Assembly: GCF_988242995.1 (NCBI RefSeq)
Contig: NZ_OZ547043.1
Direction: 5' to 3' (one strand)
DNA: 64,000 nt
Shown: one piece after another, positions 3,270 through 30,733 of the stretch
Numbering within the stretch: position 1 is the first letter of the stretch
Layout: each line of letters begins with the position of its first letter
The notes under the pieces: model-generated
What the model saw: only the letters and a program-made list of their open reading frames with translations
What the model was told of the DNA's origin: nothing
Databases searched by the model: none
Position numbers and translations under genes: made by a program

Positions 3270-3345
3270 TTGGCTCCTCTGACTGGACTCGAACCAGTGA
3301 CATACGGATTAACAGTCCGCCGTTCTACCGACTGAACTACAGAGG
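3270..3345 (-). tRNA. asnW: tRNA-Asn
   Basis: 76 nt, exact reverse complement of the tRNA-Asn sequence found at 5095..5170 and 7504..7579; ends CCA. Confidence 0.95.
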
Positions 3346-3446
3346 AATCGTGAGAACGAGGCGAATATTAGCGATGCCCACCCACAATGTCAAAGCCTGT
3401 TTTTTAAATTTGAAATCGTTTGCTGAAATAATCTGCATTTTGTCGT

Positions 3447-5094: not shown

Positions 5095-5170
5095 TCCTCT
5101 GTAGTTCAGTCGGTAGAACGGCGGACTGTTAATCCGTATGTCACTGGTTCGAGTCCAGTCAGAGGAGCCA
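5095..5170 (+). tRNA. asnU: tRNA-Asn
   Basis: TCCTCTGTAGTTCAGTCGGTAGAACGGCGGACTGTTAATCCGTATGTCACTGGTTCGAGTCCAGTCAGAGGAGCCA, GTT anticodon loop. Confidence 0.95.
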
Positions 5171-7503: not shown

Positions 7504-7579
7504 TCCTCTGTAGTTCAGTCGGTAGAACGGCGGACTGTTAATCCGTATGTCACTGGTTCGAGTCCAGTCAGAGGAGCCA
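7504..7579 (+). tRNA. asnV: tRNA-Asn
   Basis: 76 nt identical to asnU copy. Confidence 0.95.
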
Positions 7580-10467: not shown

Positions 10468-11009
10468 TTGATTTTTACTCCAATACCAGAAACCACCAGC
10501 CATACTTCATTTGCCGCAGCGGCCAACTGCTGATTTACCCGCCCGGCAATATCACGAAAATGTCGTGCCAGACGACTCTCCGGCACAATCCCCATTCCCA
10601 CTTCGTTAGTCACTAATACAACCTTTGCGGGGCAACGTTGGCAGGCAGCAATCAACGACTGAATCTCAGCATTAATCGCCTGTTCCATCGCCTGATAATC
10701 CCATTCATCAGGGTCTTTATCGCCGCCATAATCAAACAACAGATTAGTCACCATTGTGGTAACGCATTCCAGCAACACAACCTCATTCGGGTTAATGTCT
10801 GCATGAATTAATTCATCAAGATGTTGCCAGCGCTCCACTGTGCGCCAGTGCTCCGGGCGGCCTTGCCGATGATGTTCTATCCGTGCAGCCATCTCATCAT
10901 CAAGGATTTGCGAGGTAGCGATATACAGAACCTGTGAAGAGTCCCCAATAAGCGCCTCTGCGTGGCGACTCTTCCCGCTCCGTGCGCCCCCCGTCACCAA
11001 AATCATCAT
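10464..11009 (-). CDS. cobU: adenosylcobinamide kinase/adenosylcobinamide-phosphate guanylyltransferase
   Basis: 181 aa with P-loop GGARSGKS. Confidence 0.9.
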
Positions 11010-12779
11010 ACCGACTCCTGATTCAAATGTATGATGGTATTCATTGAACAGAACAATGGATCCCCCACCGTTGCTGACCGCAAAACATTTACGCGATTAA
11101 TACTGCGCGTAATATAATTAAAAATCCAGCATTCTCAATCCATTACGAAATAAGATGGCATTACGGAATAGCCAGACTTTCTCGTGTTAACGTCCGACAA
11201 AATGCGTCATTGACAGCGGTTTCTGTGGATTGACACATTTCATTCAGATAATGAATTAATGCTACTGCCGGACCAACCAGCAAACGGGCATTGTGTTCTG
11301 AAATCCAGGCTATTGATTCAACGTCAGCGACAGATCTGCGCTGTAAAAGAACTTGTAAAACAACGCAATAGAATTATCCGGAATGGTGGCGACTATGCAC
11401 TAGAACACCACAATTTCGCTCTCTCGGTAAGGCACTGTCACAGCATTCAACAGAATGTGACTTGCCAGATTTATTAGCGCCACCAGATGTTTAACCGGGT
11501 AACCACGACCCAGTCGGGGATATATTCCATCTTCTCGCTGACATCATCAAGAATAAAAAGGTTTATCACACTCAGAGCAACGTTCTTCAGCAGGCGGGAT
11601 AATTCTTCAACATTTAGAAGATGTGTTATTAAAGGCATACAAACTGGACGTATTGTATTTTCTTTTGGTGGTTGACCTAAGGTAGCAGTTTATCCTGATG
11701 CGCTGAGATTTCTGTAATATCTACGTCAACATTCTCCTCGAATAGAAAATGCAGCCCCGGCAAGTGATTCACATTTTTTAACAAAACGTTGTTAGCGTGC
11801 CATTTTCAGAAGCTCTCCAAGAAAGCGAATTCTTTTCTCAAATTCTGCATTCTCAGACACAGCTTTCTACTCCATGGCAATGGCCCAAATACGAAGTTGC
11901 TCAGGATCATTAGTGGTGCTGAGAAGTTAAATAACCATGCGGAGTACCACTCGTCATCACGTATTTATATATCATGAAGCTATTGTTGTGTTTTGTACAT
12001 CAGTAGATGTATTCTGATATACTCCTTTTGCTAGACATAACCTTTCACCTGCTTGCAAAGCTTCTGTGTTCTGACATTGCCAAATTGTTGCAATTCTGTA
12101 TCCAGCCTTCTTTCAGTCATAGCTTCGGGCCGCGATAAGACTCACTGATCTGACCCTGATTCCTCTTGCAGACTTTATAGACCAATTAAAATGCAGTTTC
12201 TGCAGGTCAACGTCTGACCATCATTGTCATCACTCTGGCCATTAGAGTAACCTTCTGCATTCATCCTTTTGTAAAAAGTTTATAGACTGGCCCCCTGAAT
12301 CTCCAGACAACCAATATCACTTAAATAAGTGATAGTCCTGATACAAGTTTTTAGAGTAGTCATTAGTGAACAGATAATTGTTAACTTAGAACCAGTAAAA
12401 TGCAAACGACGCACCACGCTGGGAAAATCGCTGCTATTCAGCAGAGTTTTGTACCGAGAATTGTGGCCAGCCACTTATTGCTCTCGCGTAAGCAGGTATC
12501 CCCATCGTTTACCAGTCCAGCACATCTTGTGGTCAGGCAGAAGAAGAGCAAACTGTTACTGGACTCACTGCATGCATGGTGGAGAAAAATGCCACGCTAT
12601 CCAAAAATCCAGACTGGGAGAATGGTTCAGCTGTGTACTGAATCAGTGGGGCGCACTCTGTTATTACAGTGTTGACGGTCAGGCGGAGGCAGACATAATG
12701 CCGCGGAAAAAGCCCTTTGTGCCATCTGTCTCGGAAATAAAAACTCTTATGACCTTTGTCAAATATTGAGCCCAAAAAG

Positions 12780-14186
12780 ACCTTACGCAGCTCCGGGAGC
12801 TTCGTTATATCGCGGATTAAAGAACCTGAAACAGTCAGACTGTATCTTGGATTTTACAAACTCTTATTCGGGGATTTTAGCCCCATGACGATTTACGCAG
12901 TGAGCTGGCCTCTTTCTATATGCAGGTATTGGCGCATTCTGACCTCCTGAATTCTTTTACGAGGATCACTCATTCCGTGTCTGACTGCTTCAGGGTTTAA
13001 TTTTGCTTCTGCTGACTGAATGATGATTGGGCAGCAAGTGCAATATCCCACATAAATCCAGTCAACTCACGAGCCACCGCCGTAATGGCTACTTGTGATT
13101 TTTTCCCTTTTGCTGTCAGACTTCGGTAACGAGAACACAATCGTTGTTGAGCTTTCCATGCAATATCTTTGGAATATTGTGTTACAGAATCCGGTCGGTA
13201 ATATATAAGCCATGCACCAACTTTTGCAGGTGTACGATAAGACCAGGCGGCTTCGTAAAGCAGACGTCTCAGTTCGCTGTTTCCAACTTTTGTTATTCCC
13301 CTGGGACGAATGCTGTTTCCACTGGAATATTCCCCTGGAACCAGTCCCAGAAAAGCCATGAGTTGTTTGGGACTGGAAAATCGTGAAAAATCACCCAGTT
13401 CAGCAACCAGGGTTATTGCGGTTAGCTGACCAACACCTTTAAGGGCCTGTAACTGGCAGACCAGATTGCACAGAGACCACTCAGGTAACAGGCGGGATAT
13501 TTCCTGGTCGAGTTGAAGTATGCGATCTTCAATCTGCTCCAGACTCTGACAATAGTGTTGAAAAGCAATCTGTTGAGATGGCTGACTAAATGATTGATTG
13601 GCTAACCAGGTTCGATGTTTGCCGGTCCAGTGCTTCCCTGCATAACGTTTGTCTGTTCGCAATAGCATGCTCAGAATTCGCTGTCGGGCAACTCTGCTGT
13701 CTCGTTTAGCTGCTGCACGGGCTCTGATTAGATCCCGCATAGCTTCATGAGTCAGGTCAGGGATCCAGACAGGGGTAAGTTCACCAGCCCGCAGTAACCT
13801 GGCAAGAGAAATTGCGTCCCGATGATCATTTTTGATTCTGTCTGTCGGTGATTTTGGTATCCGGGAAGGGGCAATAACCTGGCATTTTATATTCATCGCT
13901 GTGAGTTGATGATATAGCCCAAAACCACAGGGGCCAGCCTCATAGCAGGAAAGAATGTTTCCGTAAAGTCCCTGCAATTTCTGAAATAATCGACGTACAG
14001 CCTGGGCTTCGTTGTTAATCGTACCATAATAACGAACTTCGCCAAGCCGTTCAGGTGCAGCAATAGCAACCGCCAACGTTTCTTTATGTACATCCAGCCC
14101 GATGTAAGCTGCAATATTTTCCGAATGCATAATGACCTCCTCTGGAATATCCCACCAATGCTATAGTGAGTATATAAAGGTCATAC
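12780..14186 (-). mobile_element. IS110-family insertion sequence (boundaries approximate, 3' end not determinable by eye)
   Basis: Transposase 12997..14130; upstream end abuts a truncated IS66 tnpC remnant at about 14187; no terminal inverted repeats expected for this family. Confidence 0.4.
12997..14130 (-). CDS. IS110-family transposase (DEDD/RuvC-like)
   Basis: 377 aa; N-terminal YIGLDVHKETLAVAI motif typical of IS110-family transposases; RBS GAGGAGG upstream. Confidence 0.8.
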   Translation of the reverse strand: MHSENIAAYIGLDVHKETLAVAIAAPERLGEVRYYGTINNEAQAVRRLFQKLQGLYGNILSCYEAGPCGFGLYHQLTAMNIKCQVIAPSRIPKSPTDRIKNDHRDAISLARLLRAGELTPVWIPDLTHEAMRDLIRARAAAKRDSRVARQRILSMLLRTDKRYAGKHWTGKHRTWLANQSFSQPSQQIAFQHYCQSLEQIEDRILQLDQEISRLLPEWSLCNLVCQLQALKGVGQLTAITLVAELGDFSRFSSPKQLMAFLGLVPGEYSSGNSIRPRGITKVGNSELRRLLYEAAWSYRTPAKVGAWLIYYRPDSVTQYSKDIAWKAQQRLCSRYRSLTAKGKKSQVAITAVARELTGFMWDIALAAQSSFSQQKQN

Positions 14187-14189
14187 CAT

Positions 14190-14412
14190 CTTTATGTTCT
14201 TCGGCGGCGAGCGCAGTGCACTGTTGTATGGGCTTATCGGCACCTGCCGTCTGAACGACATTGATCCGGAAGCGTATCTGCGCCATATCCTGAGCGTACT
14301 GCCGGAATAACCTTCCAACCGTATTGATGAACTCCTGCCATGGAACGTAGTTCTCACCAATAAATAAGCATCAATATGATTCTCCATTAACGCTTACCTT
14401 TTCTCAGGCTAT
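14190..14412 (+). mobile_element. truncated IS66-family 3' end (tnpC C-terminal remnant plus terminal repeat), diverged
   Basis: Translates to FFGGERSALLYGLIGTCRLNDIDPEAYLRHILSVLPE and PSNRIDELLPWNVVLTNK, matching the C-terminus of TnpC at 23289..24902; ends with degenerate IS66 terminal repeat ...cgcttac. Confidence 0.6.
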
Positions 14413-14505
14413 TTTTGCTTTTTTTTGCTTTTCCCCGCCACTTTATGGTGATTATCACATCAATATACATCGATAGATATTAACGTAACTGCAGTGAGGT
14501 GAAGC

Positions 14506-15720
14506 ATGAAATTTGAACGCCATCATGAAATATTGAAACGACTCAGTAAATTCGGTTCTGTAAAAGTATCCGATCTGTCCAATAGCCTCAATGTAACGAA
14601 AGAAACTATTCGTTCAGATCTTAATGAACTTGCCAGGCTTGGCTATCTGACTCGATGTCATGGCGGTGCTTTTATCGTCCTAGACTCGCTTGATACTATT
14701 GCGAAAAATGAAATCGCTTATGCGCTTGAAAATTATGATACAGCCCAGGGAATAAAAAAAGGCCACTCAACTATGAAAAGTCAAGTATGCGTTATTGGTT
14801 CGTTTAATGTTGATATCATCAGTTATTTGCCGAGGCTTCCCACTATCGGAGAATCGCTTCTGGCAAGTAATTTTATATTTTCACCGGGGGGAAAAGACTG
14901 TAACCAGGCGCTGGCAGCAAGCTTTGCCGATACTGATGTTTATTTCATAACAAAAGTAGGTACAGATCACTTTAGTGATTATGCGATCAACTTTATGAAT
15001 TCGTCTAAGATTTATAAAAGTATAATTTATCAAACGAAAGAAACGCAAACCGAAACTGCCACGATCCTTGTTAATGAAGGTACTGGCGATAATGTTATTG
15101 CGATCTATCCCGGTGCCAACATGACAATGTCGCCCGATGAAATAACTATTCAGAAAGAAGCGATTATTAATTCTGATGTCATACTTCTGCAGCTCGAAAC
15201 AAATTATACCGCTCTGCAACAAGCGATCACATTGGCGCAAAAAAACAGTATCCCGGTCATTATTAACCCGGCACCCTATAATGATATCGTCAACGAACTT
15301 ATTCAGGATGTTGATTATATCACCCCCAATGAAACAGAAGCTGGTTTACTGTCCGGCATAGACGTACACGATCTTGAATCAGCTAAACGAGCTGCAGAAG
15401 CTATCCACAATAAAGGGGTAAAAAACACGGTTATCACGCTCGGTAGCAAGGGCTCGCTCGCATTTGATGGCAAAAAATTCATTCATTCGCCAGCGTTTCC
15501 AGCGGTCGTTAAAAATACGGCAGGAGCCGGGGATGCGTTTAACGGCTCTCTGGCATCAGGACTTGCGAAAGGAAAATCACTGGAATCAGCACTGTGTTAT
15601 GCCAGCGCCTTTGCATCCCTAGCGGTGGAGACAAGCAATGCTTCCGACATGCCTGAACATGAATCTGTGATACATCGAATTCAGAGTATACATTATCAGC
15701 AAACTATTTTTACGCATTAA
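14506..15720 (+). CDS. DeoR-type HTH domain fused to PfkB/ribokinase-family carbohydrate kinase
   Basis: 404 aa; N-terminal DeoR-like HTH (VKVSDLSNSLNVTKETIRSDLNELARLGYLTRCHGGA) then PfkB body with GAGDAF signature near C-terminus. Confidence 0.7.
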   Translation: MKFERHHEILKRLSKFGSVKVSDLSNSLNVTKETIRSDLNELARLGYLTRCHGGAFIVLDSLDTIAKNEIAYALENYDTAQGIKKGHSTMKSQVCVIGSFNVDIISYLPRLPTIGESLLASNFIFSPGGKDCNQALAASFADTDVYFITKVGTDHFSDYAINFMNSSKIYKSIIYQTKETQTETATILVNEGTGDNVIAIYPGANMTMSPDEITIQKEAIINSDVILLQLETNYTALQQAITLAQKNSIPVIINPAPYNDIVNELIQDVDYITPNETEAGLLSGIDVHDLESAKRAAEAIHNKGVKNTVITLGSKGSLAFDGKKFIHSPAFPAVVKNTAGAGDAFNGSLASGLAKGKSLESALCYASAFASLAVETSNASDMPEHESVIHRIQSIHYQQTIFTH

Positions 15721-15733
15721 GAAGGGACAGAGA

Positions 15734-16492
15734 ATGAATAACACCAAAAAATCACTAAAAGTGCTCTTTATTGGGGAATCCTGGCATATTCATATGATTC
15801 ATTCAAAAGGATATGACAGTTTTACCTCAAGTAAATATGAAGAAGGTGCGACCTGGTTACTCCAGTGTCTGAAAAATAGTCAGGTAGATGTCACCTATAT
15901 GCCAGCACATACGGTACAAATTGCCTTCCCTGAAGATGTGGCACAGTTAGAACAATATGATGCCATCGTTATTAGTGATATTGGTAGTAATACTTTCCTG
16001 CTACAAAATGATACTTTTTATCAGCTTCGCATAAAACCAAACGCTCTCGAACTGATTAAAGAATATGTGAATAACGGTGGTGGGTTATTGATGATTGGCG
16101 GCTATCTCTCATTCATGGGAATTGAAGCAAAAGCCAATTATAAAAATACAGTTCTGGCTGATGTGCTCCCGGTTACGATGTTAGATGGTGACGATCGTGT
16201 CGAAAAACCAGAGGGTGTTATTGCACAGCCATCACAACCTGAACATCCAGTTATTAAAGGGTTCTCTGAATATCCTTTTTTCCTAGGTTATAACCGGGCG
16301 ATCGCTAAAGAAAATGCTGAGGTGGTATTAACAATAAACAACGCTCCATTACTGGTCTTTGGTAACTATCACAACGGGAAAATAGCCTGCTTTATGAGTG
16401 ACTGTTCACCGCACTGGGGTACACAGCAGTTTATGTCCTGGCCGTTCTATACCGCGTTGTGGGTAAATATACTGACTCATATTGCAAGATAA
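15734..16492 (+). CDS. hypothetical protein, possibly class-I glutamine amidotransferase-like fold
   Basis: 252 aa ORF immediately downstream of the kinase gene (14-nt gap); fold assignment is pattern-based only. Confidence 0.5.
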   Translation: MNNTKKSLKVLFIGESWHIHMIHSKGYDSFTSSKYEEGATWLLQCLKNSQVDVTYMPAHTVQIAFPEDVAQLEQYDAIVISDIGSNTFLLQNDTFYQLRIKPNALELIKEYVNNGGGLLMIGGYLSFMGIEAKANYKNTVLADVLPVTMLDGDDRVEKPEGVIAQPSQPEHPVIKGFSEYPFFLGYNRAIAKENAEVVLTINNAPLLVFGNYHNGKIACFMSDCSPHWGTQQFMSWPFYTALWVNILTHIAR

Positions 16493-23288: not shown

Positions 23289-24902
23289 TTATTTATTGGT
23301 GAGTACTACGTTCCATGGCAGGAGTTCGCCAACTCGGTTGGAAGGCCATTCCGGCAGTACGCTCAGAATATGGCGCAGATACGCTTCCGGATCGATACCG
23401 TTCAGACGGCAGGTGCCGATCAGCCCGTACAGCAGTGCACCACGCTCGCCGCCGTGATCGCTACCGAAGAACACGTAATTTTTCTTTCCGAGACAGACTG
23501 CACGAAGCGCTCTTTCCGCTGTGTTATTGTCCGCCTCCGCCAGACCGTCATCACAGAAGTTGCACAACGCAACCCAGTGCTTCCTGATATACCGGAACGC
23601 ATCTCTCAGACGGCATTTTTTCGATAACGTGTGTTCTTTCTCCTGCATCAGCTTATACAGGGAAGTCAGTAGCGGTTTACTCTGCATTTGCCTGACCGCC
23701 AGGCGTTCAGACACCGGCAACCCGCGTATTTCGTGCTCAATGGCGTACAGTTCACCGATTAGTTTCAGTGCTTCTTCCGCCGTCGCGCTTTTGGTACTGA
23801 TATATACATCGTGGATTTTGCGCCGTGCATGAGCCCAGCATCCTGCTTCCGTCAACGCGCCGCCTTCACGTTCGGCACTGAACAGCCGATCGTAACCTGC
23901 GAACGCATCTGCCTGCAGGATACCCCGGAAGGGACGAAGGTGTTGCTCCGGATGTTTACCCTGATGGTCCGGTGAGTAGGCGAACCAGACCGCCGGAGGT
24001 TCTGGCGAACCGGCATTTCGGTCATCCCGGACATACGTCCAGATATATCCTGTTTTCGCCTTCTTCCTGCCCGGTGCCAGTACTTTTACTGGTGTGTCAT
24101 CAGTGTGAACCTTGCGGGTGTTCATCACATAACTGTACAGGGCATCATTCAGCGGAGTCATTAACTGGCAGCACGCATCAACCCAGTTGGAGAGTAAGGC
24201 ACGGCTCAGTTCGACACCCTGGCGGGCAAAGATTTCACTCTGACGATACAGTGGCAGATGTTCGCAGTATTTTCCCGTTAACACGCGGGCAAGTAACTCC
24301 GGGCCCGCGATACCACGCTCTATCGGACGGGATGGTGCCGGTGCTTCAACGATGCAGTCACATTTTGTACAGGCTTTTTTTACCCGTTCTGTGCGGATCA
24401 CTTTCAGGGCGCTGCTCACCAGTTCCAGTTGTTCTGCACTGACTTCCCCCAGATAATCCAGCTCACCGCCACACTCCGGGCAACAGCTTTCTTCAGGCTC
24501 CAGGCGGTTTATTTCGCGGGGCAGAAGCTCCGGTAACGGACGACGATGGCGTGACTGTCGCAACTGGCGGGGAACCTGCGGGTCATCCTCTCGCCCACTG
24601 TAACGATCGCTGTCCTGTTCGCGTTGCTTCAGCAGGGCCTCAGCCTGTTCAACTTCACGACGCAGTTTTTCAGAACGGGTACCGAACAGCATCCGGCGCA
24701 GTTTTTCTATCTGAGCCCGCAGATGTTCTATTTCCCGTTCATCTTCTTCGATCTTTTCTTCGGCACGTGCCAGCACAGAACGCAGGAAGGCCTCCGTCTC
24801 TTCAACCAGACTCAGTTGTTGGTCTTTCTGACGGAGGGCTTCAGCCTGCTCAGAGAGCAACCTTTCCAGCTCTGCGATGCGAATGAGGTATTTCTGACTC
24901 AT
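23289..24902 (-). CDS. IS66-family transposase TnpC
   Basis: 537 aa; N-terminal coiled coil, CPECGG zinc motif, DDE region; C-terminus LYGLIGTCRLNGIDPEAYLRHILSVLPEWPSNRVGELLPWNVVLTNK. Confidence 0.85.
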   Translation of the reverse strand: MSQKYLIRIAELERLLSEQAEALRQKDQQLSLVEETEAFLRSVLARAEEKIEEDEREIEHLRAQIEKLRRMLFGTRSEKLRREVEQAEALLKQREQDSDRYSGREDDPQVPRQLRQSRHRRPLPELLPREINRLEPEESCCPECGGELDYLGEVSAEQLELVSSALKVIRTERVKKACTKCDCIVEAPAPSRPIERGIAGPELLARVLTGKYCEHLPLYRQSEIFARQGVELSRALLSNWVDACCQLMTPLNDALYSYVMNTRKVHTDDTPVKVLAPGRKKAKTGYIWTYVRDDRNAGSPEPPAVWFAYSPDHQGKHPEQHLRPFRGILQADAFAGYDRLFSAEREGGALTEAGCWAHARRKIHDVYISTKSATAEEALKLIGELYAIEHEIRGLPVSERLAVRQMQSKPLLTSLYKLMQEKEHTLSKKCRLRDAFRYIRKHWVALCNFCDDGLAEADNNTAERALRAVCLGKKNYVFFGSDHGGERGALLYGLIGTCRLNGIDPEAYLRHILSVLPEWPSNRVGELLPWNVVLTNK

Positions 24903-24932
24903 GACCGTTTTTATAATGCGGTCAGGAGTTTT

Positions 24933-25283
24933 TTACAACATTGTCAGTGAGTTAAGGCGGGATGTTTTTGGCTGACGCCAGTCCAGCTTATCGAGGAGCA
25001 TTACCAGTTGCGAACGGGTAATGGATACCTTGCCGTCACGTACCGCAGGCCAGATAAACTGGCCTTCCTCCAGGCGTTTGGTGAACAGGCACAGACCATC
25101 AGCATCAGCCCAAAGAATTTTAACGGTGTCACCCCGTCGGCCACGGAAGATAAACAGGTGGCCGGAGAAGGGATTATCATTCAGCACATGTTGTACCTGT
25201 TCTCCCAGTCCGTTGAAGGATTTACGCATATCGGTAACGCCGGCAACGAGCCAGATACGGGTACCTGATGGGAGTGAAATCAT
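24933..25283 (-). CDS. IS66 Orf2 (TnpB)
   Basis: 116 aa MISLPSGTRIWLVAGVTDMRKSFNGLGEQV..., typical IS66 orf2. Confidence 0.85.
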   Translation of the reverse strand: MISLPSGTRIWLVAGVTDMRKSFNGLGEQVQHVLNDNPFSGHLFIFRGRRGDTVKILWADADGLCLFTKRLEEGQFIWPAVRDGKVSITRSQLVMLLDKLDWRQPKTSRLNSLTML

Positions 25284-25705
25284 CTTCCCCTCCCGCTCAG
25301 TTCGCGGATCAACACCGTGAGCAGCTCTGGCGATGGATTTTCCAGCGTCATGTTACCGTGACGGAACTCCACCTTGCAGGAACTGGCACTGACTCTGGTC
25401 TGAGTGGAAGTGGATAAAGACGGCGCAATGGCCGCCACAGGTTTTTTCTGCTCATCCGGCGTTATTTCTACAGGTAATAATTCAACGCCAGTGTCAGAAG
25501 AGGTCGTTACCGGAAGACGCCGCGAAACACGCCCTTCGTTCTGCCAGAGCCTGAGCCATTTGAAAATAACATTATCATTGACGCCATTTTCACGTGCAAT
25601 CTGTGCAACACAAGCTCCAGGTTGTGATGCCAGTTCCACCATACGAAGTTTGAATTCATTCGAATAGTTTTTACGAGGTTCTTTTCGCCAGTCCTGTAAT
25701 TCCAT
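25280..25705 (-). CDS. IS66 Orf1 (TnpA, HTH)
   Basis: 141 aa; overlaps orf2 start by 4 nt. Confidence 0.8.
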   Translation of the reverse strand: MELQDWRKEPRKNYSNEFKLRMVELASQPGACVAQIARENGVNDNVIFKWLRLWQNEGRVSRRLPVTTSSDTGVELLPVEITPDEQKKPVAAIAPSLSTSTQTRVSASSCKVEFRHGNMTLENPSPELLTVLIRELSGRGR

Positions 25706-28421: not shown

Positions 28422-29990
28422 TCAGGCAGGCAGAGTAACCCGCCACGGGAGCAGAGCACCCACCCGGTTCACAGGCCAGTCGGCGATGACATCAAGTACA
28501 TGATGCAGATAGCGTTCCGGATCCACGCCGTTTAATTTGCACGTCCCGATAAGACTGTACAGTGACGCACCGCGCTCACCACCATGATCCGAGCCGAAGA
28601 ACAGCCAGTTTTTTCTCCCCAGACTGACCAGTCGTAGGGCGTTTTCGGCAATGTTATTATCCACCTCCACCCAGCCATCTTCTGCATAGCGGGTCAGCGC
28701 CGGCCACTGGTTCAGCGCATACCCGAACGCCTTCGCCAGTTCTGAGTGCCTTGAGAGGGTTTTCTGTTTCTCCCGCAGCCACCCCTCCAGTGACGCCAGC
28801 AGCGGCAGCACTTTTTGGTGCCGGACTGCCTGCCGTTCCTCTGCTCTTTTACCTCTGAGCTCCGACTCGATGGCATACAGCTCGCCGATCCGTTTCAGCG
28901 CCTCCTCCGTCAGGGCTGACGGGGTACGGACGTGAACATCGTGGATTTTTCGGCGGGCATGGGCCCAGCACGTGGCTTCCTTTATATGGCCGTCGCGGTA
29001 GAGCTCGTTGAACCCGGCGTAGGCATCAGCCTGCAGTACGCCACTGAAGCCTGCAAGATGGGTCTGAGGGTGGATACCTTTTCTGTCCGGGCTGTAAGCG
29101 AACCACACTGCGGGGGCCAGCGCTGATCCGGCGTTGCGGTCGTCTCGAACGTACGTCCATAAGCGCCCGGTCTTCGTCTTCTTATTGCCCGGCAACAGCA
29201 CCGGGACAGGCATATCGTCAGCATGGAGTTTGCCGTCGGTCAGGACATAGTGCTGAAGGGCTTCATCCAGCGGTGCCAGCAGACGACAACACGCATCCAC
29301 CCAGCCCGACAGTACAGAACGACTCAACACTACACCCTGGCGGGCATAGATCTCCGACTGGCGATACAGCGGTATGTGCTCTGCATACTTTGAGGTCAGC
29401 ACTCGGGCCAGCAGCCCCGGTCCGGCGATCCCCCGTTCGATGGGGCGCGAAGGAGCCGGGGCCTGAACGATGCGATCGCACCGACGGCAGGCATGCTTTT
29501 CACGGACTGTCCGGATAACCCGGAAGGCGCTGCGCATCAGCTCCAGCTGTTCGGCGGCATCCTCACCCAGGTAACTCAGCGAACCACCGCACTCCGGGCA
29601 ACACGGCTCAGTCGGCAGCAGCCGCTTCTCATCCCGTGGGAGTGACTCAGGGAACGGTTTGCGGGTGCGGGTCTGACGCAGCGGGCGCTGCACTGCCGGG
29701 TCATCCACCCGGCCGGTCAGCGTATCGCTTTCCTGCTGCAGCAGGTTCAGGTCAGCTTCCATTTGCGCGATACGGCGGGATACCTTTTCGGAACGACTGC
29801 CGAAGTTCATCCGGCGCAGCTTATCCAGTTGCGCCTGCAGATGGTCTATTTCGCGTTCCCGGTTGCTCAGCTTTTCCTGCAGGGCGTGGATCAACGCTTC
29901 CTGTTCGGCCAGGCGCTGTTTCAGCAGAAGGATGTCGTCAGAAGAGGTGTCGTTCATAAGCCTGTATTTTCCAGGCTTATTCTGCGACAA
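28422..29990 (-). CDS. IS66-family transposase TnpC
   Basis: 522 aa; same architecture as 23289..24902 but clearly diverged in sequence. Confidence 0.85.
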   Translation of the reverse strand: MSQNKPGKYRLMNDTSSDDILLLKQRLAEQEALIHALQEKLSNREREIDHLQAQLDKLRRMNFGSRSEKVSRRIAQMEADLNLLQQESDTLTGRVDDPAVQRPLRQTRTRKPFPESLPRDEKRLLPTEPCCPECGGSLSYLGEDAAEQLELMRSAFRVIRTVREKHACRRCDRIVQAPAPSRPIERGIAGPGLLARVLTSKYAEHIPLYRQSEIYARQGVVLSRSVLSGWVDACCRLLAPLDEALQHYVLTDGKLHADDMPVPVLLPGNKKTKTGRLWTYVRDDRNAGSALAPAVWFAYSPDRKGIHPQTHLAGFSGVLQADAYAGFNELYRDGHIKEATCWAHARRKIHDVHVRTPSALTEEALKRIGELYAIESELRGKRAEERQAVRHQKVLPLLASLEGWLREKQKTLSRHSELAKAFGYALNQWPALTRYAEDGWVEVDNNIAENALRLVSLGRKNWLFFGSDHGGERGASLYSLIGTCKLNGVDPERYLHHVLDVIADWPVNRVGALLPWRVTLPA

Positions 29991-30005
29991 CCAGGATAAA
30001 GAGCG

Positions 30006-30353
30006 CTACAACATGGTCAGGGATGTCAGTAACCGCTTTGGCTGTCGCCAGTCGATACCTTCCATCAGCATCGCCAGTTGCGCCGGCGTCAGGAACACTT
30101 TGCCATCGCGGGCTGAGGGCCAGGCGAAGCGACCACGTTCTAGTCGCTTTGTCAGCAGGCACAGACCATCGCCGGTGGACCAGAGCAGTTTTACCTGACT
30201 GCCGCTGCGTCCCCGGAAGATGAAGACGTGGCCGGACATCGGGTCATCTTTCAGCGCGGTCTGCACCTTTGCGGCGAGGCCATTGAAGCCGTTGCGCATA
30301 TCGGTGATACCGGCAACCAGCCAGATTTTTGTGCCTGCGGGAAGATTTATCAT
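30006..30353 (-). CDS. IS66 Orf2 (TnpB)
   Basis: 115 aa MINLPAGTKIWLVAGITDMRNGFNGLAAKV... Confidence 0.85.
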   Translation of the reverse strand: MINLPAGTKIWLVAGITDMRNGFNGLAAKVQTALKDDPMSGHVFIFRGRSGSQVKLLWSTGDGLCLLTKRLERGRFAWPSARDGKVFLTPAQLAMLMEGIDWRQPKRLLTSLTML

Positions 30354-30733
30354 ACAGGCCCCCGCATCAGTTCGCGCAGGACAGTGCTCATGAGTTCAGC
30401 AGAGGGATGAGTCAGTGTTATTTCTCCTCCCCGACATTTTATGTGGCAGGTAGCGGGAGGAGAGCAGGATGGTAGTTCGAAGGTTGGGAGAGAAGAGCCC
30501 GCCTGAAGCTGCACGGGTATCAGGGCAGGAAGCGACGATGAGTTTTTTCGGGGCCGACAGACCCGCCCTTCACGCTGCCAGAGCCTTATCCATTTAAAGA
30601 GCAGGTTATCATTGACGTCATGTTTCCGGGCCAGTGCGGCAATACTGCCTTCTTCTTCAAGAGCCAGCCTGACCAGTTCCATTTTGAATTCAGGGGAATA
30701 GTGTTTCCGGGGAAGTCTTTCTTTAGCGCGCAT
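30350..30733 (-). CDS. IS66 Orf1 (TnpA, HTH)
   Basis: 127 aa; overlaps orf2 by 4 nt. Confidence 0.8.
   Translation of the reverse strand: MRAKERLPRKHYSPEFKMELVRLALEEEGSIAALARKHDVNDNLLFKWIRLWQREGRVCRPRKNSSSLPALIPVQLQAGSSLPTFELPSCSPPATCHIKCRGGEITLTHPSAELMSTVLRELMRGPV

What the first reader, a model, noticed from the sequence alone, without database searches (positions are those of the whole stretch)
12700..14186. IS110-family element nested in an IS66 remnant, with a non-coding flank that could encode a guide (bridge) RNA
The IS110-family transposase (12997..14130, minus) begins about 55 bp from the junction with the IS66 tnpC remnant, so the element inserted into another IS. IS110-family recombinases are established to use an element-encoded non-coding bridge RNA located in a non-coding end; here the region downstream of the transposase stop (roughly 12700..12996) has only short, weak ORFs. 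Boundaries cannot be set by eye because this family lacks inverted repeats and target duplications.
Basis: partly seen in the sequence, partly recalled or inferred. Interest (0 to 1): 0.45.

Follow-up and report, generated by a model that had tools for sequence, protein, structure and literature searches.

The report
ISEc45 with 3' bridge RNA in IS66
This is an intact copy of the catalogued E. coli insertion sequence ISEc45, sitting precisely in a conserved codon block of an IS66 transposase remnant. Its 3' non-coding end encodes a conserved, structured guide ("bridge"/"seek") RNA whose loops match that target, which is correct but already expected for this family.

Summary
Window 12746..14191 (minus strand) is a complete 1,446-bp ISEc45. 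The ORF 12997..14130 is an intact 377-aa DEDD/Ser IS110-family recombinase.

An orthologous empty site in other E. coli genomes fixes the junctions to the base. The element sits in the K-N|F-M-F codons of an IS66 tnpC remnant.

The left end is 61 nt and the right non-coding end is 251 nt. Within the right end, 12825..12994 (minus) folds into a closed three-way RNA (z = -4.3). The fold is conserved downstream of the recombinase gene in 38 related loci from Vibrio to Planctomycetes, with 17 compensatory pairs.

Loop 1 carries a right target guide (UAAAAGAAUU) and a left target guide (CAUAUAG). Both match, and co-vary with, the IS66 target. Loop 2 carries AUAAGAG, which equals the right element end plus core. 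The right donor guide is unresolved.

Durrant et al. 2024 (Suppl. Table 5) already list ISEc45 as IS1111 group with the bridge RNA detected in the right end.

The extras here are modest: exact ends, guide assignment, clade-wide IS66 targeting, and variation concentrated in the target loop. RNA expression and function were not tested.

The parts
12746..14191 (-). ISEc45 insertion sequence, 1,446 bp. The ends are ambiguous by the shared dinucleotide; the alternative is 12744..14189.
   Evidence: Empty-site comparison with L008/L009. 99.9-100% identical copies are annotated ISEc45 in E. coli genomes.
12997..14130 (-). Recombinase (tnp) gene, 377 aa, intact, with DEDD RuvC-like and Tnp (Ser) domains.
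   Evidence: The closest solved structure is the IS621 transposase 8wt6.
14131..14191 (-). Left end (LE), 61 nt including the terminal AG. It carries a Shine-Dalgarno GGAGG at 14136-14140.
14176..14185 (-). Left subterminal inverted repeat, TATGACCTTT (tnp orientation).
   Evidence: The ATGACC core is conserved in relatives.
12748..12757 (-). Right subterminal inverted repeat, AAAGGTCATA.
   Evidence: GGTCATAAG is conserved at the right ends of relatives.
12746..12996 (-). Right non-coding end (RE), 251 nt.
12825..12994 (-). Predicted bridge/seek RNA domain, 170 nt. It is a closed three-way junction: closing stem P1 (12979-12994 with 12825-12840) and two arms.
   Evidence: MFE -53.9 kcal/mol, z = -4.26, 0 of 200 shuffles as stable. 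P1 is kept in every lineage with different sequence. The covariance model gives a single hit in the window at 12842-12974 (-) with 101 bits.
12950..12959 (-). Right target guide (RTG), UAAAAGAAUU, the 5' strand of the loop-1 interior. [quoted passage not shown]
   Evidence: It pairs at 8 of 9 positions with the window target AGTTTTTAT (two G.U). The same RTG segment AAAAGAAUU gives 9 contiguous pairs with the L004 target AATTCTTTT, and the variant actually inserted there (AAAAAGAAUU) gives 10.
12923..12949 (-). P4 hairpin that caps loop 1.
   Evidence: A hairpin is present in every relative with different sequence. 7 of its 8 pairs show compensatory changes.
12916..12922 (-). Left target guide (LTG), CAUAUAG, the 3' strand of the loop-1 interior. 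It has the same sense as left target plus core, so it pairs with the bottom strand.
   Evidence: Window left flank is CATAAAG (6/7). It co-varies in relatives: CAGCCAG with (C/G)AGCCAG, CAGGUAG with GAGGTAG, and CACGUAG with CACGTAG (7/7 in L005/L007).
12909..12913 (-). P3 3' strand (AGAGG). It pairs with CCUCG at 12960-12964 and closes loop 1. P2 is 12968-12972 with 12901-12905.
   Evidence: L041 shows the compensatory pair CCCCG/CGGGG.
12870..12884 (-). P6 hairpin (GGGG-CUAAAAU-CCCC) that caps loop 2.
   Evidence: 98% of cells are paired, and 3 pairs show compensatory changes.
12861..12867 (-). Left donor guide (LDG), AUAAGAG, the 3' strand of loop 2. It equals the last 5 nt of RE plus the AG core.
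   Evidence: The motif sits at the same place in relatives.
12885..12895 (-). 5' strand of loop 2 (UAAAUCGUCAU), the candidate right donor guide. The assignment is unresolved.
   Evidence: Only 5-nt complements to the left end were found (GUCAU with ATGAC). In Vibrio and Nitrosomonas, A(C/U)CAU tracks ATG(G/A)T.
12757..12762 (-). TTGACA, a conserved -35-like box in RE. In the circle junction it lies 17 nt upstream of TATGAC (14180-14185).
   Evidence: TTGAC/TTGAT is conserved at this place in relatives. The -10 is weak, so this is inferred only.
12526..12745 (+). IS66-family tnpC remnant, upstream part (frameshifted pseudogene). 12732-12745 is the right half of the target in tnp orientation (AGTTTTTATTTCCG).
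   Evidence: RefSeq annotation of the identical locus L001.
14192..14310 (+). IS66-family tnpC remnant, C-terminal part. 14192-14202 (TTATGTTCTTC) is the left half of the target in tnp orientation.

Best explanation
The region is an intact ISEc45, an IS110-family element with the IS1111-type layout, inserted site-specifically in an IS66 tnpC remnant.

Its 251-nt right end encodes a roughly 170-nt guide RNA (bridge RNA / seekRNA) transcribed in the same sense as the recombinase gene. The RNA folds into a three-way junction closed by a 16-19-bp stem.

Arm 1 has an internal loop with two guide strands:
[quoted passage not shown] Together they read the codons G-(R/K/N)-K-N-(W/Y/F)-(L/M/V)-F of IS66-family transposase genes.

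Arm 2 has a second internal loop. Its 3' strand (AUAAGAG) matches the element's right end plus core, so it is the donor side.

By homology with IS621 and ISEc11, the DEDD/Ser recombinase bound to this RNA would join the excised circle (RE-AG-LE) to the target at the core.

Shown here: the ends, the target specificity, the conserved RNA fold with covariation, and the complementarity and covariation between guides and targets.

Inferred: transcription and processing of the RNA, its binding to the recombinase, its requirement for transposition, the circle-junction promoter, and the identity of the right donor guide.
For: - **Identity and ends.**
- **Target specificity.** Every ISEc45 copy examined (8 distinct sites on chromosomes and plasmids) sits at the same point of IS66-family tnpC genes. 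So do 14-plus relatives from other phyla. Removing the element restores full-length DDE_Tnp_IS66 ORFs reading ...GRKN|WLF....
- **RNA fold.** z = -4.26. On the MAFFT alignment, 88% of cells are paired against 32-55% when partners are slid, with 13 compensatory pairs and a covariation score of 0.296 against 0.134 (0 of 500 shuffles). On the model-fitted alignment of 39 loci, 89.5% are paired with 17 compensatory pairs. The closing stem P1 averages -41 kcal/mol with its own partner and -21 cross-lineage.
- **Strand.** G.U pairs, for example 31 of 35 sequences at one P6 pair, fit only the tnp-sense strand.
- **Position.** The covariance model finds one hit per element, always 3' of tnp and on the same strand, including 11 loci not used to build it.
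- **Guides.** The LTG co-varies with the left flank in four states: CAGCCAG, CAGGUAG, CACGUAG and CAUAUAG. RTG complementarity reaches 8-10 bp. The LDG 7-mer equals the RE end plus core.
- **Variation within ISEc45.** Differences in the NCR cluster in the loop-1 interior (7 of 9 in 46 nt).
- **Literature.** IS1111-type elements carry the guide RNA in the right end, with the top-strand match 5' of the bottom-strand match (PMC11187229). Durrant et al. define LTG/RTG/LDG/RDG and list ISEc45 as 'RE, IS1111' (PMC11208160).
Against: - No expression, binding or transposition data exist for ISEc45. No RNA-seq was available here.
- The promoter scan finds nothing on the minus strand in 12600..14350.
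- Rfam has no family that matches.
- The right donor guide could not be identified; only 5-nt matches were found.
- Stem P5 is weak in ISEc45 (4 bp, two of them G.U).
- The resident guide does not match the resident target perfectly (LTG 6/7; RTG 8/9 with two wobbles).
- The inferred junction promoter has a poor -10 (TATGAC).
- The model-fitted alignment leans towards the model structure.
Confidence: 0.85

Rival explanations
1. The conserved 3' structure is a cis-regulatory or stabilising 3' UTR or terminator of the recombinase mRNA, or an antisense or regulatory sRNA as once proposed for ISPpu9. On this view the target is read by the protein, not by the RNA.
For: A hairpin followed by a U-rich run lies distal to the domain (12789-12801, 12772-12782). 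No expression data exist. Small RNAs next to IS110-family genes were first interpreted as regulators (cited in PMC11208160).
Against: The loop strands are single-stranded in the conserved fold. They match and co-vary with target flanks in four independent states. The loop-2 strand equals the element end plus core. Homologous systems have been shown experimentally to need the RNA for targeting (PMC11187229, PMC11208160).
Confidence: 0.05
2. The conservation of the right end reflects DNA-level protein-binding sites (subterminal repeats and accessory sites) rather than an RNA.
For: The subterminal repeats and a TTGAC box are conserved as DNA motifs.
Against: The conserved block lies 75-250 nt inside the end. 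It shows compensatory changes that keep pairs while the sequence changes, and strand-specific G.U pairs, which double-stranded DNA sites would not produce.
Confidence: 0.04
3. This particular copy is a fixed, no longer mobile resident. The guide-RNA reading is right for the family, but this copy is inert.
For: The copy is shared at this locus by about 500 complete genomes. Two unoccupied IS66 target sites lie 10-15 kb away in the same window. The resident guides fit them only partly (LTG 4/7).
Against: The ORF, both ends and the RNA domain are intact. The same variant (identical protein and loop 1) sits in two other IS66 sites elsewhere (L047, L048). The same site carries a different variant in UTI89, while the flanks are three times less diverged.
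Confidence: 0.15

Closest known systems
IS1111-group elements with a 3' seekRNA / bridge RNA (ISEc11, ISPa11, ISKpn4; Siddiquee et al. 2024, PMC11187229; Durrant et al. 2024 Fig. 6)
   Same: Short left end, long right end, subterminal inverted repeats, guide RNA 3' of the gene, top-strand match 5' of the bottom-strand match, and strict site specificity. ISfinder places ISEc45 in the IS1111 group, and Durrant's Table S5 lists the bridge RNA in its right end.
   Different: The recombinase is 377 aa, against 330-350 aa for that clade. It is only 28-35% identical to IS1111A, ISEc11 and ISPa11, about as far as it is from Piv, IS110 or IS621, and 15-25% in Siddiquee's identity matrix. The RNA here is a roughly 170-nt closed three-way junction, not the 82-96-nt seekRNAs reported.
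IS621 bridge RNA system (Durrant et al. 2024; Hiraizumi et al. 2024; PDB 8wt6)
   Same: A DEDD plus Ser recombinase. Two internal loops each carry two guide strands that pair with opposite DNA strands and include a dinucleotide core. The element has a circular intermediate.
   Different: In IS621 the RNA lies in the left end, is driven by the junction promoter, and forms two tandem stem-loops with the LTG 5' of the RTG. Here it lies in the right end, the order is RTG then LTG, and both arms are enclosed by a long closing stem. The core is AG in tnp orientation (CT on the other strand). Protein similarity is confined to the C-terminal domain (E = 8e-10).
ISEc21 (IS110 family), which targets the DDE-coding region of IS3-family transposase genes (PMC11187229, Suppl. 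Fig. 11)
   Same: It is an RNA-guided IS that inserts in a conserved coding motif of another IS family's transposase gene.
   Different: ISEc21 carries its guide RNA upstream and targets IS3. ISEc45 and its clade carry it downstream and target the GRKN(W/Y)LF codons of IS66 tnpC.
IS1533, ISSfr2, ISPye17/19 (ISfinder entries that share the GLDVHKE...CYEAG...KNDxRDA motifs; seen in Durrant's tables)
   Same: They appear to belong to the same deep branch as ISEc45. IS1533 is also listed as 'RE, IS1111'.
   Different: They were not analysed here, and their targets were not checked.

Membership tests
IS110 family (sensu lato) recombinase | An N-terminal DEDD RuvC-like domain (PF01548) plus a C-terminal Tnp domain (PF02371) with a conserved Ser | tested here: met
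   PF01548 E = 1.4e-15 and PF02371 E = 1.2e-24. NF033542 scores 280 bits against a cut-off of 140. D13, E64, D102/D105 and S269-S270-G271 are invariant or nearly so among 19 homologues.
IS1111 group | Subterminal inverted repeats of 7-17 bp | tested here: met
   10-bp TATGACCTTT / AAAGGTCATA, starting 6 nt (left) and 2 nt (right) inside the ends, excluding the core. The ATGACC/GGTCAT core is conserved in relatives.
IS1111 group | Right non-coding end much longer than the left, with the guide RNA in the right end | tested here: met
   LE is 61 nt and RE is 251 nt. The covariance-model hit lies 3' of tnp in all loci. Durrant Table S5 reads 'RE, IS1111'.
IS1111 family sensu Siddiquee et al. (tight transposase clade, 330-350 aa) | A transposase related over its full length to that of IS1111, and of that size | tested here: inconclusive
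   The protein is 377 aa and 28% identical to IS1111A over 242 aa (E = 2e-16). This is barely better than Piv (1e-15) or IS110 (9e-13). Identities to IS1111-clade members in their matrix are 15-25%. No phylogeny was built.
Bridge RNA / seekRNA | A structured ncRNA in a non-coding end, conserved with covariation | tested here: met
Bridge RNA / seekRNA | A target-binding internal loop whose two strands pair with opposite strands of the left and right target halves, core included | tested here: met
   RTG and LTG assignments with complementarity and covariation.
Bridge RNA / seekRNA | A donor-binding loop with LDG and RDG matching the element ends | tested here: inconclusive
   The LDG AUAAGAG equals the RE end plus core. 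For the RDG, only 5-nt and possibly discontiguous matches were found.
Bridge RNA / seekRNA | The RNA is expressed, binds the recombinase and is required for recombination | not testable with these tools
   No RNA-seq or biochemical data were available, and no paper on ISEc45 function was found.
Rfam RNA families | A match to a curated covariance model | tested here: not met
   No hit at E <= 1 in 11000-16000, and none at gathering score in the region. Rfam 15 appears to hold no model for this RNA.

The most novel reading that the evidence does not exclude
ISEc45 and its relatives (47-86% identical recombinases in Gamma- and Alphaproteobacteria, Nitrosomonas and Planctomycetes) may form a distinct deep lineage of RNA-guided recombinases, neither the canonical IS1111 clade nor the IS110/IS621 type.

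Its guide RNA is a closed three-way junction. The lineage as a whole appears specialised as a hyperparasite of IS66-family transposase genes, inserting at the GRKN|WLF codons.

The target loop looks like the fast-evolving module that retunes the element to local IS66 variants. Three loop-1 variants were seen within E. coli. In addition, the same chromosomal site was hit by two different variants, or one replaced the other.
Probability: 0.5. Interest if true: 0.4.

Novelty: already known. Interest (0 to 1): 0.25.

Why it matters

The practical value is modest. It gives a fully annotated natural bridge-RNA system of the right-end type, with ends, core, RTG, LTG, LDG and a covariance model. It also gives a clear natural target, a conserved motif of IS66 transposase genes across phyla. 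Finally, it gives a small natural experiment in retargeting: loop-1 variants within one species. These could help anyone who wants orthogonal bridge recombinases, or who studies ISs that parasitise other ISs. No open question is resolved by it.

Tried and rejected
- **Rfam.** The 'evalue' scan of 11000-16000 and the gathering scan of the whole window found nothing in the element.
- **Promoter and terminator scan of 12600-14350.** It found no minus-strand promoter and only an intragenic terminator-like site. An own promoter for the RNA is therefore not supported.
- **Right donor guide.** Only 5-nt matches were found, in inconsistent registers across relatives, so it is left unresolved.
- **RNAalifold on the raw MAFFT alignment.** It recovered only P2, P3 and P6. 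P1, P4 and P5 needed anchored per-sequence folding and a hand-written structure.
- **Guide change versus resident target.** I asked whether the window variant's guide change is explained by its resident target. It is only a trend: type A scores 6/7, 6/7 and 5/7, while type B/C scores 7/7, 6/7, 6/7 and 4/7, and UTI89's type C sits in the 4/7 site. It is not decisive.
- **Ends of the delta/spirochaete subgroup (L033-L036).** L035 and L036 share 517 nt upstream and 398 nt downstream of tnp. The ends were not found, so I abandoned this.
- **Literature.** 'ISEc45' appears only in resistome and mobilome lists. No paper linking IS110-family elements to IS66 tnpC was found.
- **Not run.** I did not run a structure prediction of the protein or a phylogeny.
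Full report
**What is there.** The window is E. coli chromosome: cobU, cobS and cobT, then an IS4 and an IS66 remnant, then rikA. The ORF 12997..14130 on the minus strand encodes a 377-aa protein. It has the two domains of IS110-family recombinases (PF01548 and PF02371). It also scores 280 bits against NCBIfam NF033542, 'IS110 family RNA-guided transposase'. Megablast against complete E. coli genomes gives 99.9-100% matches annotated 'IS110-like element ISEc45 family transposase', flanked on both sides by IS66-family pseudogene fragments. The protein is identical to WP_000555380.1.

**Exact ends.** Strains that have the same cob-rikA locus without the element (L008 CP025903; L009 O104:H4) read ...GGAAATAAAAA-CT-TTATGTTCTTCGG....
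- In the window the left junction is ...AAAAA-CT|CTTATGACC... and the right junction is ...GGTCATACCAT|CT-TTATGTTC... So a CT dinucleotide (AG in the gene's orientation) is present at both junctions (12744-12745 and 14190-14191).
- The element is 1,446 bp.
- In the gene's orientation the left end is AG-ATGGTATGACCTTTATATAC..., 61 nt up to the ATG. The right end is 251 nt and finishes ...TTGACAAAGGTCATAAG(-AG).
- The ends carry a 10-bp subterminal inverted repeat.
- Across ISEc45 copies the left-junction dinucleotide is always AG. The right-junction one is AG, AA, CG or AT. I therefore assign 14190-14191 to the element and 12744-12745 to the target.

**Target.** Eight distinct ISEc45 sites were read, on chromosomes and plasmids, in ISEc22-, ISEc23- and IS682-like elements and in remnants. 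All lie at the same point of an IS66-family tnpC gene. Related elements found with a protein profile in one genome per species have recombinases 47-72% identical. They come from Vibrio, Nitrosomonas, Rhizobium, sphingomonads, Rhodobacteraceae and Planctomycetes.
- They have the same ends (ATG..ATGACC / GGTCATAAG) and lengths of 1,433-1,504 bp.
- They have flanks ...GAA(C/G)AGCC-AG | AG-TTCTT(G/C)C....
- Joining the flanks restores full-length ORFs with DDE_Tnp_IS66 (E = 1e-91 and 2e-94) that read ...IGRKN|WLFAGS... across the join.

So the whole clade inserts in the GRKN(W/Y/F)(L/M/V)F codons of IS66 transposase genes. ISEc21 is a published precedent for an IS110-family element that targets a conserved coding motif of another IS family's transposase gene, in that case IS3.

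**The RNA.** The right end is conserved far beyond what the protein divergence would predict. The conserved block is a closed three-way junction.
- **P1** is a 16-28-bp closing stem whose sequence differs in every lineage. Duplex energy averages -41 kcal/mol with its own partner and -21 with partners from other lineages.
- **Arm 1** is P2, then P3 (CCUCG/CGAGG), then an internal loop, then the P4 hairpin.
- **Arm 2** is P5, then an internal loop, then the P6 hairpin (GGGG...CCCC).

On the MAFFT alignment of 21 sequences, 88% of cells pair, against 32-55% when partners are slid by 1-3 columns. Thirteen pairs have changes on both sides, and the covariation score is 0.296 against 0.134 in shuffles (0 of 500).

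A covariance model built from this alignment finds exactly one hit in the window (12842-12974, minus strand, 101 bits). It finds one hit per related locus, always 3' of the gene and on the gene's strand. This includes 11 loci that were not used to build it. On that alignment 89.5% of cells pair and 17 pairs are compensatory; this alignment leans towards the model. Frequent G.U pairs fit only the gene-sense strand. The 170-nt domain 12825-12994 folds on its own into exactly this architecture, at -53.9 kcal/mol and z = -4.26. Rfam has no matching family.

- **RTG.** The 5' strand of loop 1, UAAAAGAAUU (12950-12959), is complementary to core plus right flank. It pairs at 8 of 9 positions with the window's AGTTTTTAT, two of them G.U. 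The same RTG segment AAAAGAAUU gives 9 contiguous pairs with the L004 target AATTCTTTT; the common variant inserted there (AAAAAGAAUU) gives 10. In relatives, (G)CAAGAAUU pairs with A(A/G)TTCTTG(C).
- **LTG.** The 3' strand, CAUAUAG (12916-12922), has the sense of left flank plus core; the window has CATAAAG. It co-varies with the flank: CAGCCAG with (C/G)AGCCAG in most relatives, CAGGUAG with GAGGTAG in L027, and CACGUAG with CACGTAG (7/7) in L005/L007.
- **Order.** The top-strand match lies 5' of the bottom-strand match. This is the order reported for IS1111-type seekRNAs and the reverse of IS110-type ones.
- **LDG.** In loop 2 the 3' strand holds AUAAGAG (12861-12867), which equals the last five bases of the right end plus AG.
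- **RDG.** The 5' strand of loop 2 should hold the right donor guide. I found only 5-nt complements to the left end (GUCAU with ATGAC; A(C/U)CAU tracking ATG(G/A)T in Vibrio and Nitrosomonas), and the register differs between relatives. Durrant et al. describe discontiguous RDG pairing, and donor-binding bases in multiloops for many IS1111 elements. This part remains open.

**What is inferred rather than shown.** Transcription is not shown. No minus-strand promoter was found. A conserved TTGACA in the right end would lie 17 nt from TATGAC of the left end in the excised circle, but that -10 is weak. The RNA would then be the 3' part of the recombinase transcript or be processed from it. Binding to the recombinase and the requirement for transposition rest on homology with ISEc11, ISPa11, ISKpn4 and IS621 (PMC11187229, PMC11208160).

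**Comparison with what is known.** ISEc45 is an ISfinder entry. Durrant et al. 2024, Supplementary Table 5, list it as 'Detected Bridge RNA End: RE; IS110 Group: IS1111'. Siddiquee et al. 2024 include its protein in their data set.

I found no paper that describes ISEc45's ends, target or guides. The recombinase is a deep branch. It is 28% identical to IS1111A, 26% to Piv, 22% to IS110, and about 30% to IS621 over the C-terminal domain only. At 377 aa it is outside the 330-350 aa of the tight IS1111 clade. Membership in the IS1111 group holds by layout and by ISfinder usage, but not clearly by protein clade.

**Side observations.**
- **Variation in the target loop.** The window variant differs from the common ISEc45 variant at 9 positions of the non-coding end. 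Seven of them lie in the 46-nt interior of loop 1 (first RTG base, P4, two LTG bases). P1, P2, P3 and arm 2 are identical.
- **One site, two variants.** The same cob-rikA site carries the window variant in this strain and a different variant in UTI89. The elements differ at 35 of 1,448 bases, while the flanks differ at 14 of 1,920. This points to two insertions or to an allelic replacement.
- **Unoccupied targets nearby.** The window also holds two intact IS66-family elements with unoccupied target sites (23469-23483 and 28599-28613). The first matches the common variant's LTG perfectly over the five left-target bases (CACGT; 6 of 7 with the core) but matches the resident variant's only 4 of 7.

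**Verdict.** It is a known element of a known kind, so interest is low to moderate. The added value is a base-level annotation and the clade-wide IS66 target.

Noticed in passing
window 23289..25705 (-) and 28422..30733 (-); sites 23469-23483 and 28599-28613: There are two intact IS66-family elements (tnpA-tnpB-tnpC) with unoccupied ISEc45-type target sites (K-N-Y-V-F and K-N-W-L-F codons). The first site's left half, CACGT, matches the LTG of the common ISEc45 variant (CACGUAG). The resident variant's LTG (CAUAUAG) matches it only 4/7.
   Followed up: partly
window 12913..12959 (loop 1 of the RNA) compared with L002-L007: Within ISEc45, 7 of the 9 differences in the non-coding end between the window variant and the common variant fall in the 46-nt loop-1 interior (RTG base 1, the P4 hairpin, LTG bases 3-4). 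The rest of the RNA is identical. Three loop-1 variants were seen.
   Followed up: partly
window 12744..14191 compared with L006 (UTI89, same cob-rikA site): The same chromosomal site holds two different ISEc45 variants. The elements are 97.5% identical (35/1448) while the flanks are 99.2-99.3% identical (14/1920). This suggests independent insertions into one site or replacement by recombination. Other strains have the empty site.
   Followed up: partly
window 12744-12745 and 14190-14191; L004, L005, L007, L047, L048 junctions: In the gene's orientation the left-junction dinucleotide is always AG, whereas the right-junction one is AG, AA, CG or AT. The 'core' at the right junction therefore looks target-derived, and the target core need not equal the donor core.
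   Followed up: partly
L035:1192-3222 and L036:1966-3996: A delta/spirochaete subgroup carries the same RNA fold but different loop sequences (LTG region CUACUAG, LDG AUAUCAG). Copies in a Spirochaete MAG and in Halanaerobium congolense share 517 nt upstream and 398 nt downstream of tnp. Neither the ends nor the target were found.
   Followed up: partly
L041:3688-3819 (Cupriavidus necator) and L043:1329-1457 (Limosilactobacillus oris): L041 has the otherwise invariant P3 changed on both sides (CCCCG/CGGGG). L043, whose recombinase is only 30% identical, still gives a weak model hit (36 bits) 3' of its gene.
   Followed up: no
window 3274-3346 (-), 5095-5167 (+), 7504-7576 (+), 52786-52860 (-), 55600-55723 (+): Rfam gathering-score hits elsewhere in the window: three tRNA genes with identical scores, the sRNA STnc240, and the histidine operon leader.
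   Followed up: no
window 11100..12525: Between cobU and the IS66 remnant lies about 1.4 kb with only short ORFs. In the identical RefSeq locus it is annotated as a cobalamin-biosynthesis pseudogene fragment plus an IS4-family fragment, followed by roughly 1 kb with no annotation.
   Followed up: no
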